From contig NZ_MQTZ01000045.1 of the NCBI RefSeq assembly GCF_001939115.1, positions 162,006 to 185,375 on the forward strand: 23,370 nt of DNA, read 5' to 3'. Position 1 is the stretch's first letter. Each line of letters begins with the position of its first letter. Shown one piece after another: positions 85-23,370 of the stretch. Source of the stretch: Leptolyngbya sp. 'hensonii'. Its GTDB lineage: Bacteria; Cyanobacteriota; Cyanobacteriia; GCF-001939115. The notes beneath the pieces are model-generated. The model saw nothing but the letters and a program-made list of their open reading frames with translations, made no database searches and was not told where the DNA came from. A program made the position numbers and the translations under genes.

Positions 85-2214
85 TTATTCCGGCTCACCA
101 ATCAGGACAAACGCAGCCCAGGACTTGGGATTAGGATATTCTTTCAATGTGGCCAGCATCGCCTGACGCAATGCCCTGGCCTTATCCGGTTGGCGTTGCA
201 GGTTCTGGTAAAACTGCGTCATCAGGAAACTGGTAGGGGCATCGGGCACTTGCCAGAGGGACACCATCACCGAAGGGACACCAGCGATCAGGAACGATCG
301 AGCCAGTCCCAACACCCCGTCGGAAAACACAATCCCCTGGCCCGTTTCACAGGCACTCAACACCACCAGTTCAGCCCTCAGTCTGAGCTTGACAATTTCT
401 CCCACCGTCAGGAGTCCGGCATCTCGTCCCGATGGGGCCAGGGCCAAAATCCCTGGAAATAGGAAGGGGCTGTAGTCCCCATCGGGGGGTTGATACAGCC
501 CATTGCCCCGATAGGCATACAAAAAGCCATGGGTTGCCAAGTGAATCAATCGGGCGGTCTGCATGCGTTGCATGACCGCTGCTTTGGTGGCCTGGTTTCC
601 AAGCAGGGGCTGGGTTCCCAACAGCGCTGCGATCGATTTGGCCTCTTTTTCCGCTCCGGGCAGGGCGGCCAGTTGCCGTTGCGGTTGATTGGGGGCCACG
701 GAAACCAGCGGCATGGTGGGATTCCCCACAATCAGGGGCAGATCGCCCGAACGTCCAGGGTTCTGGGCAAGGGTAGTACGCTGTCGCTGGGTCAGGGCCA
801 GTACCCGAATGGCAGGGGCGATCGTCAGGGTATGGCGTTCAATCAAATAGCGGCCCGTTTCATCCTGCAGGGCTGCGAAAGGAACCTGGAATAGTTCCTG
901 ATGGGGCACAAAGATCACCTGCTCCTCTGGATTTTGGGGCAACAAATCCGCGATCGGTTGGATCAAAAGTTGATAGAGGTCTCGCAGATTTTGATTGGCC
1001 ACCGGGTCGATCGGATTAGCCGCAGCCTGATTCACCTCTTCCCTAAAAACGAGCCCACTTCGAGTCACTCCCAAAGACCGCAAACTGCTGGCCACCAGCA
1101 CTTCCAGAGAATTCCTGGGTTGCCCCGATGGGAGGGGTAAACTCACCTGCCGAAAGGTAATCTTGCCCTGGGGAGGAATTACCCAGATGTAGAGGGCTTT
1201 ATTTTCTATTCCCAGGCCAAATCTTTTGTGGTTCAGGATAATAGAATATTGCACGATCGTGGCATTATGAGTTGCAGCTACTTGCTGAAGTTGTTGCACA
1301 GTCGGTTGATAGATCAGTGCAGGGTTGAGGGACTGGAGACCCAAGCGAACTACAGCCGCCTCCGTAAATGCCACGGCTTTCCCCCTTTCGGCAGCTTCCA
1401 GGGCTCGATCGGGTTGGCCCTGGGCCACCAAGATTTCTTGTAACAGGGAATATAAATTCCTCAGTCCTGCCCATTCAAACTCCAGAATTCGGCTCCAATC
1501 AAACTGTAGGGCTTCTCCTGCCGGAATGGGCACAGGTTTGGGAATGGCAGACTCCAACAGGCGTTGTGCCTCCGCCCGATCACCAGCATCGAAGAGAGCT
1601 CCCCCCAGTTGAATCTTGATATATCGGCTGTCTGGATTGAGGGCCAGACCCTGGCGGTAATACTTGAGGGCTTCCGCAGGCTGTCCCAATAGGGCATAGG
1701 TCTGAGCCAGATCAGCCAGAACCCAACCTTTTTCCTCATTACTGAACTCCCCCTTCCCCCTGGTCATGAAAGCCAACTGCTCTCGATAGAGCTGGAGGGC
1801 GGTTTCATATTGCCCCAGCAGCACATAATTGGAGGCCAGCATTCTCACCAGATCGACGTTCAGATCATTGCCCAGCATCTTGTTCAGGGTGTAGGCTTGC
1901 CGCAGGAACTCCACAGCCCTGACTTTTTCGCCGGTGATGTTATACATCGTACCGATCGCCCGCAGCAGAGCCGCTTCCTGCTGGCGATTCCCCGTTTTTT
2001 GGGCATTGGCCAGAGCTTGCTGACAAAGCCTCAACTCACTGGCCGCAGCCCGACGCAGTTCTTCCACCATCAGCAGGGTAACTGCATCCCCCTCCGTGGA
2101 CTGCATGGCCTCTGCACTGATTAAACATTTCTCAGTGAGATCCTGGGCTTTGCCGGGCTCAGGGGTTGCCCATCCGATCGACAACAAAAGGGTTCCCATG
2201 AATCCCAGAGCCAT
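85..2214 (-). CDS. TPR-repeat protein with C-terminal CHAT (caspase-like) domain and N-terminal signal/TM segment
   Basis: 728-aa ORF on the track, which uses a GTG at 2271. The first ATG at 2214 gives a signal-peptide-like N-terminus (MALGFMGTLLLSIGWA). The central region has repeated TPR-like helices (YETALQLYREQ, AEALKYYRQGLALNP). The C-terminus has the CHAT His/Cys dyad context: HLATHG ... VLSACETGQG. Confidence 0.75.
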   Translation of the reverse strand: MALGFMGTLLLSIGWATPEPGKAQDLTEKCLISAEAMQSTEGDAVTLLMVEELRRAAASELRLCQQALANAQKTGNRQQEAALLRAIGTMYNITGEKVRAVEFLRQAYTLNKMLGNDLNVDLVRMLASNYVLLGQYETALQLYREQLAFMTRGKGEFSNEEKGWVLADLAQTYALLGQPAEALKYYRQGLALNPDSRYIKIQLGGALFDAGDRAEAQRLLESAIPKPVPIPAGEALQFDWSRILEFEWAGLRNLYSLLQEILVAQGQPDRALEAAERGKAVAFTEAAVVRLGLQSLNPALIYQPTVQQLQQVAATHNATIVQYSIILNHKRFGLGIENKALYIWVIPPQGKITFRQVSLPLPSGQPRNSLEVLVASSLRSLGVTRSGLVFREEVNQAAANPIDPVANQNLRDLYQLLIQPIADLLPQNPEEQVIFVPHQELFQVPFAALQDETGRYLIERHTLTIAPAIRVLALTQRQRTTLAQNPGRSGDLPLIVGNPTMPLVSVAPNQPQRQLAALPGAEKEAKSIAALLGTQPLLGNQATKAAVMQRMQTARLIHLATHGFLYAYRGNGLYQPPDGDYSPFLFPGILALAPSGRDAGLLTVGEIVKLRLRAELVVLSACETGQGIVFSDGVLGLARSFLIAGVPSVMVSLWQVPDAPTSFLMTQFYQNLQRQPDKARALRQAMLATLKEYPNPKSWAAFVLIGEPE

Positions 2215-2389
2215 TCCAGAGCTGCCCAGACGATGCAAAAATTTCAGCACGGCTGTATCCTCCCCAGGCACTATGTCTGTGCTTTTATTGTCTCAAATGC
2301 AACTGGTATGGCTGGGGGATTGCATCAAAATGCAACCTCTCAATGGAGCTGGGCTAATCTAGTAGCCAGTATTGTCTAGAACTGCAGCT

Positions 2390-17146: not shown

Positions 17147-17773
17147 TTATTCCACCAGATGTTGATTTTCGGGATTAGTTGCAAGGCTCAGTAGAATATG
17201 GATTTGCTGTCGAAATTCAGCAACCAGGCTGCTATGAACATGTTGTTCAAATAGATCGGCAAGTGCCTGGTGTAGCCAGAGGTTATCCTTTTTGCTGGCA
17301 GCAAAGGCTGACCAGGCACTTTCGCCAGTTTGACGCAGGTTAGTAATCAGCGATCGCACATTGTGTAGCTTATCAGCCAGGATGACGCGCTGGGCTTCTG
17401 GCGAAGCATGGCGAATTTGGTTGAGATAGTCGAGCTTATGGCTTTTCCAGGGTTGGGAAGCAGAGCAGGGAGGAATCGTGCAATCATGAACGATCTCGGC
17501 AACTTGTGAACCATAGCGACGCAGAATTTCTGTGTAGATGGGCTCACCCCCCTGATCCTCAACAGCATCGTGGAGGAGGGCGGCGATCGCTTCATCCTCG
17601 CTGCCACCGTCTTCCAGTACCAGGGCGGCTACAGCCATGAGGTGACTGATGTAAGGTACGGCATTTACTTTACGGGATTGGTAGCGATGTAAGTGGAGGG
17701 CATAGGTAAAGGCATCAGCGAAGCGATCGCTCAAAATCACATCAAGGTGGATCTTTTCAGAAACGTGGGTCAT
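17147..17773 (-). CDS. Stand-alone RelA/SpoT-type HD-domain hydrolase (small alarmone hydrolase/Mesh1-like)
   Basis: 208 aa. HRYQSRKVNAVPYISHLMAVAALVLE...AIAALLHDAVEDQ matches the (p)ppGpp-hydrolase HD signature (H..Q.RK.GEPYI.HPL.VA.IL...AALLHDV.ED). The ATG overlaps the TGA of the upstream gene (ATGA at 17770-17773). Confidence 0.7.
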   Translation of the reverse strand: MTHVSEKIHLDVILSDRFADAFTYALHLHRYQSRKVNAVPYISHLMAVAALVLEDGGSEDEAIAALLHDAVEDQGGEPIYTEILRRYGSQVAEIVHDCTIPPCSASQPWKSHKLDYLNQIRHASPEAQRVILADKLHNVRSLITNLRQTGESAWSAFAASKKDNLWLHQALADLFEQHVHSSLVAEFRQQIHILLSLATNPENQHLVE

Positions 17774-19200
17774 AGCAGGTCATCATCATATAACTGCATT
17801 TCTTGCTTGACTTCCTGAGCGGTACGTTGACGCAATTCCCAGGGAAGCAATACTTCTACGTTGGGTCTCCAGGCGCGGAGTCGTTGGAAAACGTTGGGGT
17901 CATCCTGGCGGTAGTATGCCTGATAGTAGGCATCATCGGGGGAGCGATGCTGCCAGAGGCGCAGGAGATGTTCTTGAAGCTGACCAGAGAGGGTCTGACG
18001 GATGAGGAATTGCACCTGATGATAGGGGATTTTGCGAAAGGTGGTATGGCGCAGGGTGTCGCGAATATAGCGGTCATCCCATTTGCGATCGAACCGTAGT
18101 AGAAGTAAGTGGCGGGGTTGGTAGTAATCAAACCCCCAGGCTTCATCCATCGCCGTTTCGATCTCCTCTGGGGTGGGGAGGGTTTGTTTCTGGTATTGCT
18201 GGTAAAGCTTTCGGGGGACAGTGGTATCTTTCCAATTTAGGGAATCGATGGCGAGGATGCGATCGAGGCGGTAATTGCGCCAGTTGAGCGCAGAACTGGC
18301 TGCTTTGGGAAACTGACCATAGGCACACAGGTAGGGTCCACGACGGTAGTAATAGATGCAAACGGGATAGACCACGAGAGGACAACTCCGGGTTTCCCCT
18401 GCACTCTGGTAGTGAAGGCGTACCGGCGGAATGGGGGTTTGCTGCCAGATCTCTGAGAGTAAGGCTTGCCAGTCATCCACGCGATCGAGCTTGTTTTGGG
18501 AAATGACGTAATCGACATGGACAAAGAAGCGGGGGTATCCCTGGAAGGTCCGGGAGAAGGTGTCAGCAATAGCTGCCAGATCGGGCTGGGTAAACAAGGT
18601 GAGCTCCTGCCCGGAGGGAGACTGGATGATTGGGGCTCCAACATGGGGATAATCGGGATAGGAAGTGACTTTTTGAAATTTGTTTTCCTGGATATGGAGC
18701 CATCCTGTGGTAGCAAGGTGATGCAGATCGCTGGAAAGGGTGCGGCGGGTAAACCCAAACAGGCGAGTTTGAAAAAGTAGGTGATCCAGATTGGGCGGCA
18801 GGAGATCATGGTCAATGAGCGATTGGTGCAGTTGATCGCGCTGTTCCTGGATCTGACCTTGCCCAGGCTGCTTACCCTGGTAAACCTGCCACTGGGATTG
18901 GGTGGTAGTCAAATCTGGATGAAAGAGCCAGGCAGCGGTGGGTTTAGTGCAGGGACAGGAGAGACGGTGGAGGGTTGGTTTGGTTTCCCCGCTGGGATGG
19001 TCAGGGGTGAAAAACTGATCGCGCCAATCTGCGTAGCTGAAGGTTTCTGGTAAAGCCAGGGTGTCACCCATTTCGCCGTAGAGTAGATGTAACCAGACCC
19101 ACAGGCGAATGGCTTGAAGGAAGTTTTGCTTGAGAGAACCCCGCACTAACCACTGCAACAGGGGAATGTTGGGAGACTCTTGCCAAAATGCATCAGCCAT
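17770..19200 (-). CDS. WYL-domain protein (putative ligand-binding transcriptional regulator of the CRISPR/defence island; TIGR03985/sll7009-like)
   Basis: 476 aa. A WYL core is recognisable around GPYLCAYGQFPKAASSALNWRNYRLDRILAIDSL (compare the WYLvGwc...RtFRLDRI motif of PafBC/BrxR-type WYL domains). The gene is transcribed divergently from the csx3-like operon and is translationally coupled to the HD hydrolase. Confidence 0.5.
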   Translation of the reverse strand: MADAFWQESPNIPLLQWLVRGSLKQNFLQAIRLWVWLHLLYGEMGDTLALPETFSYADWRDQFFTPDHPSGETKPTLHRLSCPCTKPTAAWLFHPDLTTTQSQWQVYQGKQPGQGQIQEQRDQLHQSLIDHDLLPPNLDHLLFQTRLFGFTRRTLSSDLHHLATTGWLHIQENKFQKVTSYPDYPHVGAPIIQSPSGQELTLFTQPDLAAIADTFSRTFQGYPRFFVHVDYVISQNKLDRVDDWQALLSEIWQQTPIPPVRLHYQSAGETRSCPLVVYPVCIYYYRRGPYLCAYGQFPKAASSALNWRNYRLDRILAIDSLNWKDTTVPRKLYQQYQKQTLPTPEEIETAMDEAWGFDYYQPRHLLLLRFDRKWDDRYIRDTLRHTTFRKIPYHQVQFLIRQTLSGQLQEHLLRLWQHRSPDDAYYQAYYRQDDPNVFQRLRAWRPNVEVLLPWELRQRTAQEVKQEMQLYDDDLL

Positions 19201-19338
19201 ATCCTAGATGGTGCTCTATCAATTTGCCTACTTGTATGAGTGTGCCACAGACATGGAGGAGAGGGTTTCCAATTGAATGCCTCTTAAGCTGATATTGAGG
19301 TTGAGAATCCAACATGTTCCTTTGATAGGATCAGTTTG
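19201..19338. promoter_or_regulatory. Divergent intergenic/promoter region between the WYL-domain gene (minus) and the csx3-like operon (plus)
   Basis: 138-bp non-coding gap between two divergently oriented start codons. This is the likely site of autoregulation by the WYL protein. No operator has been defined. Confidence 0.3.
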
Positions 19339-19695
19339 ATGTCAAACACTATTTATATGGCTGCGATCGAGTTGACGTGTATTTCTCATCGGACAGCATC
19401 AGGGCTCGCCTATCAGCACTTGCATATTCATCTGGCAGCGGAAGATGGGTTGATTGAGCCAGAGGACTTGAAAGGGCTGGTTGTGCCAGACACAATCGTG
19501 TGGAGTCAGGGAGTGGTGATTGAAGGAAAGGCTCCCATTTGGTTGTATGGCTATCTGGTGCATGCCTGTCATCCAGCGGCTTGGGTCGCCTGTTATGATC
19601 CCCGGCTGGGAGATGGGGGTGGGGCAGTAGTGGTAGCCACCCATGCGCGCCAAGTGAAAGTTGGTGAAGTGCTTCTTACGACGTTACCCCTATGA
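19339..19695 (+). CDS. Csx3-like small protein (putative Crn3 ring-nuclease family)
   Basis: 118 aa from the ATG at 19339; the track uses a TTG at 19336. The motif GKAPIWLYGYLVHACHPAAWVACYDPRLGDGGGAVVVATH resembles the Csx3 core as recalled (PIW..YDPRLGAVVV). It is clearly paralogous to the N-domain of the next gene. Its stop overlaps the next ATG (ATGA at 19692-19695). Confidence 0.45.
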   Translation: MSNTIYMAAIELTCISHRTASGLAYQHLHIHLAAEDGLIEPEDLKGLVVPDTIVWSQGVVIEGKAPIWLYGYLVHACHPAAWVACYDPRLGDGGGAVVVATHARQVKVGEVLLTTLPL

Positions 19696-20579
19696 TTCGC
19701 TTAAGCCGAATTGAGTCGAATTATCAGGTTGTGTCGGTGTTACCTCATGCGGAGGGACGGGCGATCGACCCTATAGAACTGATCGACCTGCAGCTCCCTC
19801 ATGATGTGGATCTAAAGCAGCCTGTGATTCTGTTTGGTCCCGTGCCTACTTGGGTTTATGGGCGGCTGGTTGCCCTATGCCGGGAGGCTCCCTGGGTTGG
19901 TTGTTTCTCGGCTCCAGAGGCAGAAGCAGTCGTGATCCAAAGTCGAGTGGCGAATGTGGCAGTGGGGGATGTGATTGCCATTCCGCTGGGGCGGGAAAAG
20001 TTGGCTCCAGCGGTGCTGGTAGTGGGACCGCCAGATAGTGGGAAGAGTGTTTTGTCGAATGCATTGCGCAGGAGTTTACTGGCGCATTATCCGCACAGTT
20101 CTATCTTTTTGCATCGGGCGAATTGGGATGGTGAGGGGAACTGGAGCCATGAGGGGCAAGATCATGCCCTGATCCAGCGTCTTGTGCGGAACCATGAACG
20201 CCGCATTCACGAACGCCCCTCTGCAACAGAATTGATGGCGGCGTTTTTTGCCTATCACGAGGCAGCGGTGATGAATTTGCGGCGGGTGGTGGATCTGGTG
20301 ATTGTGGATGTGGGAGGGAAGGTGCAACCTGAGAAGGCAGGGGTGCGCGATCGCTGTACCCATGGGGTGATTATTAGCCGCGCACCGGAACTGGTAGGGG
20401 AGTGGCGCAGGTTTTGTGAGCCAACGCTGGAGTTGCTGACGGTGATTCACAGCGTACTGGAGGAACGGTGTGAGGTGAAGTCGAGAGTACCCCTGGAGGT
20501 AATTGCGGGACCTTGGTTCCGGGGGAAAACGCACCAAGTGCCAGAGGTGGTGTGGCAGGCAGTGGGGAAATTGTTATAG
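19692..20579 (+). CDS. Csx3-like N-terminal domain fused to a P-loop NTPase (Csx3-AAA-type fusion)
   Basis: 295 aa. Residues of about 40-100 (GPVPTWVYGRLVALCREAPWVGCFSAPEAEAVVIQS) align with the upstream small protein. Walker A VLVVGPPDSGKSVL and a Walker B-like VVDLVIVDVGG follow. Confidence 0.5.
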   Translation: MIRLSRIESNYQVVSVLPHAEGRAIDPIELIDLQLPHDVDLKQPVILFGPVPTWVYGRLVALCREAPWVGCFSAPEAEAVVIQSRVANVAVGDVIAIPLGREKLAPAVLVVGPPDSGKSVLSNALRRSLLAHYPHSSIFLHRANWDGEGNWSHEGQDHALIQRLVRNHERRIHERPSATELMAAFFAYHEAAVMNLRRVVDLVIVDVGGKVQPEKAGVRDRCTHGVIISRAPELVGEWRRFCEPTLELLTVIHSVLEERCEVKSRVPLEVIAGPWFRGKTHQVPEVVWQAVGKLL

Positions 20580-20591
20580 CCCTGGTTAGGA

Positions 20592-21776
20592 CTAGCCAAA
20601 ATCTTTGCCGATACGCTGGTTCAGATCTAAAAGGCAAGCTTGTCGCTCACCAAGTGTTTGACTGGAGGTTTCGATCTCAAACCGAACTATCCAGGTGCCG
20701 TTGCTCAGCGTTCCTTCCAAGGCATCTCCTTGCAAACGAAAGGAATTGAGGCTGGAGAGTGCGGGATTCCAGTAGAAGGTGCGACAGCCTGTGACATAGG
20801 GGCAGACATCGGTGATGCGTTGCAGGTAACGGATGATTGGGTCTCTGGCATTACCCCAATTATGGTTAGACATCTGGGGTTTACGTTTCTGTTGCGGGGG
20901 GACTGGAGATGGCAAATGCAACGCCATTTGTGGCAGTTGTCGTTCTCGAAATGCCTCATAAAATACCTGACCTGTGGGCGACAGGGTGATGTAAACCTGC
21001 CCGTCAATCTCTACTCGTTCTACCAGGGGTTCCAGGGCTTCTGACCAGTCATCCTGCACGGTTTCCCAGGGGGTCTGGTCGTGGGAGTTGCGCCCCAAAG
21101 CAGTGAGCCAGCCGTTATGCTGAATCCACAGGTCAAAATCCAGGCTGACGGGCATGGGTGGAAAGGCGATGATTTCGCTAAACCGTTCATGTTTGTAGTA
21201 AACCGGAACTTTGAGCGCCTGCCCCAATAGAACGGCGATCGCAATTTGTGCTTTATACCCCCCCGTGGCGTTGATCGCGCAATACTCGGCTCCGCGCAAC
21301 CGCAATCCGCAGGACATTTGCTTAACCAGGTTGCGTAACCCATCAGTGCGAAAGGTTTTGGGATGATTGTCTTGAAGCCCTTCTACTCGATACGGAGTGG
21401 CGGTATGCCCCAGTGCCTGGTAGTAATGAACCAGGAGGGTGGCGATCGCAGTGCCTTCGTCAGTGTCAGAGTGACAAAACAGGAGGGTGGCGGTAGGGGT
21501 GACATAGCCCCGCTGGAGCAAATCACCAATGGAGTTGATTTCGGCTCCACATAGACGCAGGGTGGGCGGAAGCTGGCTTAAATGCAGGGCGAGGGTAACC
21601 CAATCAGTATGCTCAAAGGTGGTTTTGAGGGTGGCAACGGTATCAGTGGTGAGATGGGCACGATCGGGGACAGGCTGTTTTTGGAGCCACTCATCGTAAT
21701 GGTCGGGGGCAGGCAAGGTTCTAAGATTGGGATTAAACAGGCTCGTACCAACGGTACAGATAAGGGTATGACGCAT
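20592..21776 (-). CDS. CARF-domain protein (cyclic oligoadenylate sensor) with an uncharacterised C-terminal domain of about 190 aa
   Basis: 394 aa. The N-terminus MRHTLICTVGTSLF is the CARF motif-I glycine/serine loop. AINATGGYKAQ is the CARF motif-II GG(Y/F)K. The C-terminal half has no convincing HEPN Rx4-6H motif, no clear PD-(D/E)xK motif and no HTH. Confidence 0.6.
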   Translation of the reverse strand: MRHTLICTVGTSLFNPNLRTLPAPDHYDEWLQKQPVPDRAHLTTDTVATLKTTFEHTDWVTLALHLSQLPPTLRLCGAEINSIGDLLQRGYVTPTATLLFCHSDTDEGTAIATLLVHYYQALGHTATPYRVEGLQDNHPKTFRTDGLRNLVKQMSCGLRLRGAEYCAINATGGYKAQIAIAVLLGQALKVPVYYKHERFSEIIAFPPMPVSLDFDLWIQHNGWLTALGRNSHDQTPWETVQDDWSEALEPLVERVEIDGQVYITLSPTGQVFYEAFRERQLPQMALHLPSPVPPQQKRKPQMSNHNWGNARDPIIRYLQRITDVCPYVTGCRTFYWNPALSSLNSFRLQGDALEGTLSNGTWIVRFEIETSSQTLGERQACLLDLNQRIGKDFG

Positions 21777-21794: not shown

Positions 21795-22172
21795 TTATTG
21801 GGGATATAGGTTTATATTCACATTGCAGGCACCCAGCGGATTGACGCAGATTGGCATACTATAGCGAACTCGAAAAACCCCTTCTGCACCGGAGGGAACA
21901 TTAAAGAAAATGGTTTCGTTCCCAAGCTTCTTACCCCGAGCAAATCGCTGACCTGTCGTGTCGTAGAGTTCCACATCCACATCGCCCAGAACAGACGTGG
22001 CTTCGAGGATGTAGCCTCCTGGTCTATTGATTGTCAATCTCACCCAATCCGTCCCTCCGGCATAAAGGGGGCGTACTGCTTCAGCTTTCGCTGTAAGTGG
22101 GTCCAATCTTTCCATCAGCACGATCGTCAGACACGCAAGGGAAACTCGGCTCATCAAGCGTTTGTAGTTCAT
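21795..22172 (-). CDS. Small secreted protein with a PPC (pre-peptidase C-terminal)-like domain
   Basis: The track ORF runs from a TTG at 22202. The ATG at 22172 gives MNYKRLMSRVSLACLTIVLM. LGDVDVELYDTTGQ resembles the PPC GD(A/V)DLYLY motif. It lies 18 bp upstream of the CARF gene, probably in the same transcript. Confidence 0.35.
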   Translation of the reverse strand: MNYKRLMSRVSLACLTIVLMERLDPLTAKAEAVRPLYAGGTDWVRLTINRPGGYILEATSVLGDVDVELYDTTGQRFARGKKLGNETIFFNVPSGAEGVFRVRYSMPICVNPLGACNVNINLYPQ

Positions 22173-22360
22173 GGTATTGTTCCTATTTTTTGAAACCACC
22201 AAACCAGGGGTTGAGAGGTTGCGGTTGGTGGGGCTGGTTTAGTGCAACTGGTCATAGCTTATTCGATGTCTGGAAGGGGGTACTTCCAAGGAGCGATCGC
22301 GGGTTGAAGGGATGGGGCAATCGGGCAGTGGAGTTTTTAGGATCGTGGATTTAATAACTC

Positions 22361-22660
22361 CGAGATTTTCAGCCCTTACCCCCTCCCTCTCTCCCGGCGG
22401 GAGAGCTACCGCGTATACAGATCTCTGAAAAGTTTGGCTCAAGTCAGCAGACTCACGTGAAATCCCCTCTCGGGAGGGGTGGCCCGCAGGGCCGGGGTGG
22501 GTCTAGGAACGGGAGCAGGAGGGTTGAACCCACCCCTACCCCTCCCAGGAGGGGATTATGGGTACACAGTAGCCCAGAACGGGAGAGGGGGCTGGGGGAT
22601 GTAGACGCAGAGCGGCTTCCCCTGGGGTGGGCAACCTTGCAAAACTGGGATGCCCCCGTT
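22361..22660. repeat. GC-rich cluster of palindromic hairpin elements (CTCTCCCGgCGGGAGAG; CCCCTCtcgGGAGGGG; GGGGTGGG...CCCACCCC) between the PPC/CARF operon and the CRISPR array
   Basis: The inverted repeats were read directly. Related GGGGTGGGG/CCCCACCCC-type palindromes occur at 4886-4925, 12790-12890 and 1-80. Confidence 0.35.
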
Positions 22661-22662
22661 GA

Positions 22663-22687
22663 GTTTTTTCAACAGTCCCCAATTGGG
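22663..22687. repeat. Degenerate, internally deleted CRISPR repeat (GTTTTTTCAACagtCCCCAATTGGG) at the array trailer end
   Basis: Matches the repeat 5' part GTTTTCAAC and 3' part CCCAATTGG, with about 13 bp deleted between them. It lies 8 bp before the first intact repeat. Confidence 0.4.
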
Positions 22688-22695
22688 ACGACTGA

Positions 22696-23368
22696 GTTTT
22701 CAACTATTCCAATTTGACCCAATTGGTAGGGGTCCTGAGTGCTCAGGAGCAAGCGGATAGGGATGCCGCTAGAGAGTTTTTCAACTATTCCAATTTGACC
22801 CAATTGGTAGGGACAACTCTCGTCGTGACTCTCCGAGTCTCGATGGTTCTAAGGTCGGTTTTCAACTATTCCAATTTGACCCAATTGGTAGGGAAGTGGT
22901 TGCAAAATGCAAAGACGGAGTTGTTGTGGAGAACTCCGCTGGGTTTTCAACTATTCCAATTTGACCCAATTGGTAGGGGGTTGCGAAGTAGTTGGGAATC
23001 TTTGTTTTCTTCGAGAAAGTTTTCAACTATTCCAATTTGACCCAATTGGTAGGGTGTGCTTGCTGCGGTTATTGCACTGGTGATTTGGCTTCTAGTTTTC
23101 AACTATTCCAATTTGACCCAATTGGTAGGGTTTGTTTTTTTGAAAAAGCAGGAGAATTTCCCATGTCCAACAAAGGTTTTCAACTATTCCAATTTGACCC
23201 AATTGGTAGGGGGTCATTGTTTCAGTTGTTTATTCCCTTTTCAAGGAGAAGTTTTCAACTATTCCAATTTGACCCAATTGGTAGGGACTTTGTTTACACC
23301 TGGAACGAAACCAACAATGGCACTACCACCTAGTTTTCAACTATTCCAATTTGACCCAATTGGTAGGG
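22696..23368 (-). CRISPR. CRISPR array with at least 9 identical 36-bp repeats GTTTTCAACTATTCCAATTTGACCCAATTGGTAGGG and 8 spacers of 39-49 bp. The array continues beyond the window end.
   Basis: Repeats lie at 22696-22731, 22777-22812 (first base T), 22858-22893, 22943-22978, 23019-23054, 23095-23130, 23176-23211, 23251-23286 and 23333-23368. The reverse complement ends ...ATAGTTGAAAAC, the usual 3' GAAAC-type handle. This, together with the degenerate repeat at the left end, suggests minus-strand transcription with the leader to the right of the window. There is an internal 6-bp palindrome CCAATT/AATTGG. Confidence 0.95.
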
Positions 23369-23370
23369 AG

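What the first reader, a model, noticed from the sequence alone, without database searches (positions are those of the whole stretch)
22663..23370. CRISPR array of 36-bp repeats running off the window. Orientation evidence places the leader, and presumably the cas core, to the right.
There are nine perfect repeats, with spacers of 39-49 bp. The repeat reverse complement ends in GTTGAAAAC, the usual crRNA 5'-handle source. The only degenerate copy, internally deleted, is at the left end next to a GC-rich hairpin-rich segment rather than an AT-rich leader. The array is therefore probably transcribed on the minus strand toward the PPC-CARF operon. No cas1, cas2, cas6, cas10 or cmr/csm genes occur in the 5.5 kb to its left. 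Only accessory genes are visible there, which is unusual unless the core lies downstream of the window or in trans.
Basis: partly seen in the sequence, partly recalled or inferred. Interest (0 to 1): 0.6.

Follow-up and report, generated by a model that had tools for sequence, protein, structure and literature searches.

The report
Trailer end of cyanobacterial CRISPR array
This is the old end of a genuine CRISPR array from a filamentous cyanobacterium, of a known kind that in relatives sits between a reverse-transcriptase spacer-capture module with a type III-B effector and a block of signalling accessory genes, so it is ordinary.

Summary
The array is real. It has eight exact 36-nt repeats, one copy with a single-base change, and one internally deleted remnant at the left end. 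The eight spacers are 39-49 nt. The source genome is not in any searchable collection, so the right flank could not be read.

Three related cyanobacterial loci carry the same accessory genes next to the same repeat family. They are an Elainellaceae MAG (CARF protein 88% identical), Nodosilinea nodulosa, and Nostoc N6 plasmid pNPM1. In all three the far end of the array carries a leader, then cas2 and RT-cas1 (or RT plus cas1), a membrane CARF gene and a cmr2-cmr6 operon.

The repeat strand ending GTTG(G/A)AAAC is the strand of cas1-cas2. Variant repeats lie at the end far from cas2 in four relatives.

Accessory genes flanking the trailer are normal for this family, not unusual. No Cas6 gene lies in the cas-bearing related loci. 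Their layout matches Synechocystis CRISPR3 (subtype III-Bv), whose crRNAs are cut by RNase E, so a cognate Cas6 may not exist. That step is inferred. This is a new member of a known kind.

The parts
22663..22687 (-). Internally deleted repeat remnant at the trailer end of the array. In crRNA sense it reads CCCAATTGGGGACTGTTGAAAAAAC. It lies 8 nt from the last full repeat.
22696..22731 (-). Full 36-nt repeat, the oldest intact copy.
22732..22775 (-). Spacer of 44/45 nt.
22776..22812 (-). Variant repeat. One extra base in the run at the handle end, so it reads ...GTTGAAAAAC in crRNA sense.
22813..22857 (-). Spacer of 45 nt.
22858..23368 (-). Seven further exact repeats (starts 22858, 22943, 23019, 23095, 23176, 23251, 23333). 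They are separated by spacers of 49, 40, 40, 45, 39 and 46 nt. The array continues past the window end.
22324..22662 (.). GC-rich (0.60), strongly structured segment between the array and the downstream operon. It is absent from the homologous trailers of L001 and L003, so it is an insertion specific to this genome. It is not a leader.
21795..22172 (-). 125-aa ORF with an N-terminal hydrophobic segment. The true start is the ATG at 22172 (MNYK...). It is conserved at this position in L001, L002 and L003. No family hit. It ends 18 nt upstream of the CARF gene on the same strand.
20592..21776 (-). CARF protein (Cas_APE2256; PADLOC CARF7-DUF2103, full length, E 1.8e-117).
19692..20579 (+). Csx3-AAA fusion protein.
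19336..19695 (+). Csx3/Crn3 ring-nuclease family protein.
17770..19200 (-). TIGR03985 CRISPR-associated HTH-WYL protein.
17147..17773 (-). HD_4 (RelA/SpoT-type HD) protein. It marks the outer edge of the conserved accessory block.

Best explanation
Window 22663-23370 is the trailer (oldest) end of a CRISPR array of a filamentous cyanobacterium related to Elainellaceae.

Transcription (inferred from synteny). The array is transcribed on the minus strand, from right to left. The promoter lies in a leader beyond the right edge of the window.

What lies to the right (inferred from relatives). In three relatives the leader is followed by cas2 and an RT-Cas1 fusion (or RT plus Cas1). Next come a membrane-anchored CARF gene and a divergent cmr2-cmr3-cmr4-cmr5-long-cmr6 operon. 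This is a type III-B variant. Its Cas10 has no HD domain but keeps the GGDD cyclase motif.

How it works (from knowledge of type III systems; nothing was measured here).
- RT-Cas1/Cas2 inserts new 39-49 nt spacers at the leader end, from RNA or DNA.
- The long transcript is cut within each repeat, in the 13-nt AU-rich tail (AAUAGUUGAAAAC) that follows a conserved 6-bp hairpin.
- Each crRNA therefore carries a repeat-derived 5' handle ending ...UUGAAAAC.
- The Cmr complex uses the crRNA to recognise complementary transcripts.
- On recognition Cas10 makes cyclic oligoadenylates. These act on the CARF proteins encoded on both sides of the array. The two Csx3 ring nucleases degrade them.

Which enzyme cuts the repeat (inferred, about 45%). 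No Cas6 gene lies in the cas-bearing related loci. Their layout matches Synechocystis CRISPR3 (III-Bv). The cut is therefore most likely made by a host RNase (RNase E, with RNase J) rather than a dedicated Cas6.
For: Array anatomy
- Repeats, spacers and remnant are as described.

Synteny with L001/L009 (Elainellaceae MAG; CARF protein 88% identical)
- The order is cmr6-long, cmr5, cmr4, cmr3 and cmr2 on one strand. On the other strand come TM-CARF, RT-Cas1 (695 aa: RT 14-282, Cas1 363-691, no Cas6 domain) and Cas2.
- A 480-nt leader and 54 repeats follow. Then come the 127-aa ORF, CARF7, Csx3-AAA, Csx3, WYL and HD.

Synteny with L011 (Nodosilinea nodulosa; CARF 62% identical)
- The same order is seen, with 46 repeats.

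Synteny with Nostoc N6 plasmid pNPM1 (finished, annotated record)
- In the window's orientation the array of 29 repeats is followed by cas2, cas1 and RT on the minus strand.
- HD, TIGR03985, Csx3 and cmr2-6 lie on the other side.

Other loci with this repeat family
- L005 carries Cmr3, Cas10b and TM-CARF. L006 carries TM-CARF and TIGR03985 WYL.

Repeat family
- The window repeat differs from L001's at only two positions. Those two positions form one base pair of the stem (G-C to A-U).
- Nodosilinea has a second compensated pair.
- Across 12 repeat variants, 100% of cells pair and two pairs change on both sides. Only 1 of 500 shuffles reaches this.

Polarity
- Variant or degenerate repeats lie at the end far from cas2 in L002, L003, L007 and L011, and at the window's left end.
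- In L011 an intrinsic-terminator-like hairpin follows the trailer.

Parallel with Synechocystis CRISPR3 (III-Bv)
- It has the same gene layout.
- Its repeat is 36 nt, with a 5' hairpin and an AU-rich tail ending UUGGAAAC. Its spacers are 35-47 nt. It has no Cas6. RNase E cuts it 13-14 nt from the repeat end (PMC3575380, PMC12464536, PMC6546367).
- The long Cmr6 of L009 is homologous to the Synechocystis Cmr1-Cmr6 fusion (E 2e-8). Cas1 is 37% identical.

Absence of Cas6
- No Cas6 model hit in L001, L009, L011, L007 or L008.

Cas10 features
- GGDD is present and the N-terminal HD region is absent in L009 Cmr2.
Against: - The window stops inside the array, so its own leader and cas genes were never seen.
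- The source genome is not in the collections. The exact repeat has no hit in genome or metagenome contigs, and three window proteins are not on record.
- L006 shows that an array of this family can lie next to TM-CARF without cas1 or cas2. Loss of the adaptation module does happen.
- No spacer found a target. A strand test on 131 spacers showed no bias. Orientation therefore rests on synteny and repeat polarity only.
- On the RNase E step: the hairpin sits at positions 6-23, not 2-18 as in Synechocystis.
- Similarity to the Synechocystis III-Bv proteins is remote (21-24%). The Cmr5-like proteins do not align.
- Cyanobacteria often carry other CRISPR systems whose Cas6 can process orphan arrays (bioRxiv 10.1101/2020.04.14.041012).
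- No transcript data exist.
Confidence: 0.8

Rival explanations
1. Stranded array. The array is real and oriented as described. In this genome, however, it is no longer joined to RT-Cas1/Cas2 and cmr genes, because they were deleted or moved. The crRNAs would be used in trans or not at all.
For: - L006 (Leptolyngbya sp. Heron Island J) has arrays of the same family next to a frameshifted TM-CARF and a WYL gene, with no cas1 or cas2. It also has many variant repeats and inserted elements.
- The window array has a deleted terminal repeat and a 339-nt insertion at its trailer.
- No spacer target was found.
Against: - The two closest relatives with long contigs (L001, L011) and pNPM1 all keep the complete module next to the array.
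- Eight of the nine full repeats in the window are identical. All five accessory genes are intact ORFs with full-length family matches. Neither fits a decaying locus.
Confidence: 0.17
2. Cas6 in trans. Same array and orientation, but the repeat is cut by a conventional Cas6 encoded elsewhere in the genome. This would give the usual 8-nt handle UUGAAAAC.
For: - The repeat ends in GTTGAAAAC, close to the common AUUGAAAC-type tag (PMC3575380).
- In Anabaena 7120, two Cas6 enzymes process several orphan arrays (bioRxiv 10.1101/2020.04.14.041012).
- Only about 20-50 kb around each related array was examined. Whole genomes were not.
Against: - No Cas6 in four independent loci of this family, including a finished plasmid.
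- RT-Cas1 lacks the Cas6 domain found in the Marinomonas fusion.
- The gene layout equals Synechocystis III-Bv, which is processed without any Cas6 (PMC12464536, PMC6546367).
- The tail contains the cyanobacterial RNase E signature: A at -3/-4 and U at +2, at A27|G28 (PMC8682795, applied by hand).
Confidence: 0.4
3. Opposite orientation. The array is transcribed on the plus strand from a promoter in the GC-rich segment at 22324-22662. The degenerate copy would then lie next to the leader.
For: - The segment lies directly next to the first repeat.
- Leaders in this family are not AT-rich, so composition does not exclude it.
Against: - No promoter-like site lies in 22100-22720.
- The segment is absent from the homologous position in L001 and L003.
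- In L001, L011, pNPM1 and Synechocystis the ...GAAAC strand of the repeat is the strand of cas1-cas2. In Synechocystis the transcription start is mapped experimentally (PMC3575380).
- Degenerate repeats mark the end far from cas2 in four relatives.
Confidence: 0.03

Closest known systems
Synechocystis sp. PCC 6803 pSYSA CRISPR3 (subtype III-Bv), matured by RNase E and RNase J
   Same: - 36-nt repeat with a 5'-proximal hairpin and a single-stranded AU-rich tail ending (U)UG(G/A)AAAC.
- Long spacers: 35-47 nt there, 39-49 nt here.
- In the window's relatives the locus layout is the same: long Cmr6, small subunit, Cmr4, Cmr3 and Cmr2, divergent from (x)-cas1-cas2-leader-array.
- No Cas6 gene.
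(PMC3575380, PMC12464536, PMC6546367)
   Different: - Cas1 is fused to a reverse transcriptase in the relatives.
- Cmr2 is 589-605 aa and lacks the N-terminal about 217 residues of the 979-aa Synechocystis protein.
- The hairpin is at 6-23 rather than 2-18.
- Proteins are only 21-37% identical.
- The accessory set differs: TM-CARF, CARF7-DUF2103, Csx3, Csx3-AAA, WYL and HD here, Csx18 and others there.
- RNase E processing is not shown for this family.
Nostoc sp. 'Peltigera membranacea cyanobiont' N6 plasmid pNPM1 (NZ_CP026682.1) type III-B/RT locus
   Same: - Same repeat family: GTTTCCAACTAATCCGATTTAACCCAATCGGTAGGG. Five positions differ, two of them forming the compensated stem pair.
- Same linked genes: HD, TIGR03985, Csx3-AAA, CARF7, TM-CARF, cmr2-6, cas1, cas2 and RT.
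- Same orientation of the array relative to cas2.

   Different: - RT and Cas1 are separate genes.
- The accessory HD-WYL-Csx3 block lies next to cmr2 rather than next to the trailer.
- Spacers are shorter (32-43 nt).
- It is plasmid-borne.
Cyanobacterial RT-Cas1 type III-B systems (branch 5 of Silas et al. 2017, for example Arthrospira platensis III-B-RT)
   Same: - In the relatives, an RT-Cas1 fusion without a Cas6 domain sits next to a type III-B module in a filamentous cyanobacterium.
- Spacers find no match in public virus or plasmid data, as reported for Arthrospira.
(PMC5513706)
   Different: - Placement of the relatives' RT-Cas1 in branch 5 was not tested by phylogeny.
- The window itself shows no RT-Cas1.
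Marinomonas mediterranea MMB-1 type III-B with Cas6-RT-Cas1
   Same: A type III-B effector paired with an RT-Cas1 adaptation module that can take spacers from RNA (PMC5513706, PMC5576922, PMC11014452).
   Different: - The Marinomonas protein carries an N-terminal Cas6 domain, which the relatives' 695-701 aa proteins lack.
- The phylum and the repeat are different.

Membership tests
CRISPR array | Several near-identical direct repeats of 23-50 nt at a regular period | tested here: met
   Eight exact 36-mers plus one single-base variant, at a period of 75-85 nt.
CRISPR array | Unique spacers of similar length between the repeats | tested here: met
   Eight different spacers of 39-49 nt. None is repeated in the window or shared with relatives.
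CRISPR array | Linkage to cas genes | tested here: inconclusive
   The window holds only accessory genes (Csx3, Csx3-AAA, CARF, TIGR03985). Core cas genes flank the array in syntenic relatives. The window's own right flank is unseen.
CRISPR array | Polarity: degenerate terminal repeat at the trailer, leader next to cas1-cas2 | tested here: met
   The deleted remnant is at the window's left end. Variant terminal repeats lie far from cas2 in L002, L003, L007 and L011. The leader itself was seen only in relatives.
Subtype III-B variant (III-Bv, Synechocystis CRISPR3 type) | cmr2, cmr3, cmr4 and a long Cmr6 (Cmr1-Cmr6 fusion) next to the array | tested here: inconclusive
   Not in the window. Present in relatives L001/L009 and pNPM1, and the start of the same operon (cmr3-cmr2) in L011. 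The 552-aa Cmr6 matches the Synechocystis 649-aa RAMP at 21% identity, E 2e-8.
Subtype III-B variant (III-Bv, Synechocystis CRISPR3 type) | No Cas6 gene in the locus | tested here: met
   No Cas6 hit in the window or in L001, L009, L011, L007 and L008. Whole genomes were not searched.
Subtype III-B variant (III-Bv, Synechocystis CRISPR3 type) | 36-nt repeat with a 5' hairpin and a single-stranded AU-rich tail ending GAAAC | tested here: met
   The stem is 6-11/18-23. It is predicted by folding and supported by two compensated pairs. The tail is AAUAGUUGAAAAC. The hairpin position differs from Synechocystis (2-18).
Subtype III-B variant (III-Bv, Synechocystis CRISPR3 type) | crRNA 5' ends made by RNase E (13-14 nt handle) | not testable with these tools
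   This needs small-RNA sequencing or in vitro cleavage. The published A-U clamp rule (PMC8682795), applied by hand, would place a cut at A27|G28 or G28|U29, giving a 9- or 8-nt handle.
RT-Cas1-linked array | RT-Cas1 (or RT plus Cas1) and Cas2 at the leader end | tested here: inconclusive
   Met in L001, L011 and pNPM1. The window ends before the leader.
Rfam CRISPR-DR families | Repeat reaches a family's gathering score | tested here: not met
   No match at gathering thresholds. The best was CRISPR-DR46 at 18.7 bits against a threshold of 50, E 7.5, and it straddles a repeat-spacer junction (23109-23145) rather than a repeat.

The most novel reading that the evidence does not exclude
The whole repeat family would be matured without any Cas6, by host RNase E and RNase J. 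The family has a CCGATT/AATCGG stem and an AAUAGUUG(G/A)AAAC tail. It is found with RT-Cas1 and HD-less Cmr2 in Elainellaceae, Nodosilinea, Leptolyngbya and Nostoc. This would turn the single Synechocystis CRISPR3 case into a widespread cyanobacterial mode of crRNA biogenesis that also serves RNA-derived spacers.
Probability: 0.4. Interest if true: 0.45.

Novelty: new member of a known kind. Interest (0 to 1): 0.25.

Why it matters
For annotating this contig, the result says what to expect past the window edge. That is a leader, cas2, RT-cas1, a membrane CARF gene and a cmr2-6 operon. It also says the array should be read on the minus strand.

More broadly, it ties one repeat family to a conserved cyanobacterial island: a type III-B variant, RT-Cas1 and a fixed set of cyclic-oligoadenylate accessory genes, with no Cas6 gene nearby. 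If host RNases mature these crRNAs, as in Synechocystis, Cas6-independent biogenesis would be common in cyanobacteria. As it stands, this is one more example of a described system.

Tried and rejected
Finding the source genome
- The exact repeat has no hit in genome contigs or metagenome contigs.
- An exact-protein look-up of the CARF, Csx3-AAA and WYL proteins found nothing. The contig could not be extended directly.

Repeat classification
- Rfam gave no CRISPR-DR family at gathering or permissive thresholds.
- Tandem Repeats Finder reports nothing. This is expected for repeats separated by unique spacers.
- A full-text literature search for the repeat string found no paper.

Spacer targets
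- Blastn of the array against phages and plasmids gave only chance-level hits (E about 0.2-0.7), plus one repeat match to pNPM1.
- The 24-25 nt cores of the four youngest spacers have no exact hit in IMG/VR.
- No spacer matches elsewhere in the window or in the relatives' arrays.

Independent orientation tests
- A stop-free-frame test on 131 spacers from four arrays showed no bias (36 against 35).
- One spacer (23131-23175) reads like a ribosome-binding site plus ATG on the plus strand. That would fit an antisense crRNA from the minus strand, but it is a single case.
- Leader and trailer GC content does not discriminate in this family.

The GC-rich segment
- It has no promoter or terminator consensus.
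- It has no related sequence in plasmids beyond 40-nt GC hairpins in Azospirillum.
- A hairpin motif search found no other copy in the window.

Other
- The 'PPC' label for the small ORF has no support from any library.
- The Behler et al. 2018 paper could not be read. Its content is cited through PMC12464536 and PMC6546367.

Full report
**Observation**

The sequence at 22663-23370 is a CRISPR array. The 36-mer GTTTTCAACTATTCCAATTTGACCCAATTGGTAGGG occurs exactly eight times, starting at 22696, 22858, 22943, 23019, 23095, 23176, 23251 and 23333. A ninth copy at 22776/7-22812 has one extra T, or a G-to-T change, at its plus-strand 5' end.

The eight spacers are 44/45, 45, 49, 40, 40, 45, 39 and 46 nt. 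All are different. Their GC content is 33-51%, against 53% for the window. The last repeat ends two bases before the window does.

At the left end, 22663-22687 is a repeat remnant. It keeps both ends of the repeat but lacks about 11 internal bases. It sits only 8 nt from the first full repeat.

**Surroundings in the window**

To the left, in order, lie:
- a 125-aa ORF (21795-22172, minus strand; the real start is the ATG at 22172, judged from the relatives);
- a CARF protein of the APE2256 / CARF7-DUF2103 kind (20592-21776, minus strand);
- Csx3-AAA and Csx3 (plus strand);
- a TIGR03985 HTH-WYL protein and an HD_4 protein (minus strand).

The rest of the window holds ordinary cyanobacterial genes: a photosystem II reaction-centre protein, AdoHcy hydrolase, an ABC transporter, a histidine kinase, a Rieske protein, and a TPR-CHAT protein at the far left. 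No core cas gene is present. The 'PPC' label for the small ORF has no support in any library.

**Extending the picture**

The source genome is not in the searchable collections. Homologues of the CARF protein led to syntenic loci.

In an Elainellaceae MAG (L001, CARF 88% identical; L009 is a Logan contig carrying the identical Cmr2 and covers the cmr side), the order on the strand corresponding to the window's minus strand is:
- cmr6-long, cmr5, cmr4, cmr3 and cmr2, pointing away;
- TM-CARF (284 aa), RT-Cas1 (695 aa) and Cas2;
- a 480-nt leader and 54 repeats;
- the 127-aa ORF, CARF7, Csx3-AAA, Csx3, WYL and HD.

Nodosilinea nodulosa (L011, CARF 62% identical) has the same order with 46 repeats. 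A blastn hit of the array led to the finished Nostoc N6 plasmid pNPM1. There, in the window's orientation, 29 repeats are followed on the right by cas2, cas1 and RT on the minus strand. HD, TIGR03985, Csx3-AAA, cmr2-6, CARF7 and TM-CARF lie to the left.

A degenerate repeat pattern found three more arrays of the family. They are in Leptolyngbya sp. SIO4C1, Nostoc sp. FACHB-110 and Leptolyngbya sp. Heron Island J. Two of the three lie next to Cas10b/Cmr3, TM-CARF or TIGR03985 genes. The third, the Leptolyngbya sp. SIO4C1 contig, is only 3.6 kb and shows no cas-related gene.

**Orientation**

In L001, L011 and pNPM1 the repeat strand ending GTTG(G/A)AAAC is the strand of cas1-cas2. The leader lies between cas2 and the array. 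Variant or degenerate repeats lie at the end far from cas2:
- L002: GTAGAAAAC;
- L003: three substitutions;
- L007: tail GGAGTT;
- L011: CACTACC variants and a palindromised last copy, followed by a terminator-like hairpin.

The window's remnant and its variant copy sit at the corresponding end. Synechocystis CRISPR3 has the same layout, and its transcription start next to cas2 is mapped experimentally (PMC3575380).

The composition argument used to reach it is weak. Leaders in this family are not AT-rich. The GC-rich segment 22324-22662 is simply absent from the homologous trailers of L001 and L003. It is a strongly structured insertion of unknown kind (z = -5.8).

**The repeat**

In crRNA sense the repeat is CCCUA-CCAAUU-GGGUCA-AAUUGG-AAUAGUUGAAAAC. 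It has a 6-bp stem at 6-11/18-23, a 6-nt loop and a 13-nt tail.

The window's repeat differs from L001's at exactly two positions, 8 and 21. Together they turn a G-C pair into A-U. Nodosilinea changes pair 10-19 from U-A to A-U. Over 12 repeat variants:
- every cell pairs;
- two pairs change on both sides;
- only 1 of 500 shuffles does as well;
- slid registers do much worse.

The loop varies freely. The tail is nearly invariant.

**How it most likely works**

Shown:
- array anatomy;
- the conserved hairpin;
- conserved linkage, in relatives, to RT-Cas1/Cas2 and to a cmr2-6 operon;
- a Cas10 in L009 that lacks the HD region but keeps GGDD;
- the conserved accessory set.

Inferred from knowledge of type III systems:
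- RT-Cas1/Cas2 adds spacers at the leader end.
- The minus-strand transcript is cut in each repeat's tail.
- The Cmr complex binds complementary transcripts.
- Cas10 then makes cyclic oligoadenylates. These act on TM-CARF and CARF7-DUF2103 and are removed by the Csx3 ring nucleases.
- The WYL protein probably regulates the locus.

**Cas6 or RNase E**

No Cas6 gene was found in the cas-bearing related loci. RT-Cas1 has no Cas6 domain.

The layout is that of Synechocystis III-Bv. That system is defined by a Cmr1-Cmr6 fusion and no Cas6 (PMC6546367). Its 36-nt repeat has a 5' hairpin and an AU-rich tail. RNase E cuts it 13-14 nt from the 3' end, with help from RNase J (PMC12464536, PMC3575380). 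The long Cmr6 of L009 is a remote homologue of the Synechocystis fusion (E 2e-8).

The published cyanobacterial RNase E signature is A at -3/-4 and U at +2 (PMC8682795). Applied by hand, it fits a cut at A27|G28 or G28|U29. That would give a 9- or 8-nt handle.

I put host-RNase maturation at about 45% and a Cas6 in trans at about 40%. Only small-RNA data or in vitro cleavage can decide.

**What led nowhere**

- Spacers have no match in phage, plasmid or IMG/VR data. This fits what was reported for RT-linked cyanobacterial arrays (PMC5513706).
- A strand test on 131 spacers is flat.
- Rfam has no family for the repeat.

**Verdict**

It is the trailer end of a cyanobacterial type III-B-variant / RT-Cas1 locus of a kind already described. 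Accessory genes flanking the trailer are the conserved layout of this family, not an anomaly. It is a new member of a known kind, and its interest is low to moderate. The one open point of wider interest is whether this repeat family is matured without Cas6.

Noticed in passing
window 22324-22662: A 339-nt GC-rich (0.60) segment lies between the array remnant and the small ORF. It is absent from the homologous trailers in L001 and L003. As minus-strand RNA it folds far better than shuffled sequence (z = -5.8). It has no promoter or terminator consensus and no relatives in plasmid records. Its origin and role are unknown. One possibility is an insulator between the array transcript and the downstream operon.
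   Followed up: partly
window 21795-22172 (-): A 125-aa ORF with an N-terminal hydrophobic segment ends 18 nt upstream of the CARF gene on the same strand. It is conserved at the same place in L001, L002 and L003 but missing in Nodosilinea and pNPM1. It has no hit in Pfam, NCBIfam, PADLOC or PDB. The mechanical ORF list starts it at a TTG at 22202, but the relatives point to the ATG at 22172.
   Followed up: partly
L011 9838-9925; L005 6218-6249: The trailer-most repeat is 'palindromised' in Nodosilinea nodulosa and in Nostoc sp. FACHB-110. The 5' half of the repeat is followed by its own reverse complement (CCCTACCGAAT...ATTCGGTAGGG), and the tail is lost. In Nodosilinea a terminator-like hairpin with a T run follows.
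   Followed up: no
L001 5240-5299; L007 15687-15760 (minus strand): The last roughly 60 nt of the leader are conserved between the Elainellaceae MAG and Nostoc pNPM1: GGTGTCGATTTG, then about 35 nt, then AGACGAAC directly abutting the first repeat. This is a candidate leader anchor for integration. It is also a probe for finding the window's own leader.
   Followed up: no
L006 1200-6300: The arrays of this repeat family in Leptolyngbya sp. Heron Island J are interrupted by several copies of 100-216 nt repeated elements and carry many variant repeats. The adjacent TM-CARF gene is split into two ORFs. The locus looks like it is decaying.
   Followed up: no
window 23131-23175: On the plus strand this spacer reads like a gene start: AGGAG, then 9 nt, then ATG TCC AAC AAA. 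If the target is an mRNA, the crRNA must come from the minus strand. It is a single case with no database match.
   Followed up: partly
window 85-2271 (-): A 728-aa TPR-CHAT protein lies at the far left of the window, 15 kb from the CRISPR accessory block. pNPM1 also has a CHAT-domain gene about 7 kb beyond its RT-cas1-cas2 module. No link was examined.
   Followed up: no
L011 11325-11914 and 13437-17518: In Nodosilinea the accessory block is interrupted. A RelB/ParE toxin-antitoxin pair and two transposase genes lie among CARF7, Csx3 and WYL. The block therefore tolerates insertions.
   Followed up: no
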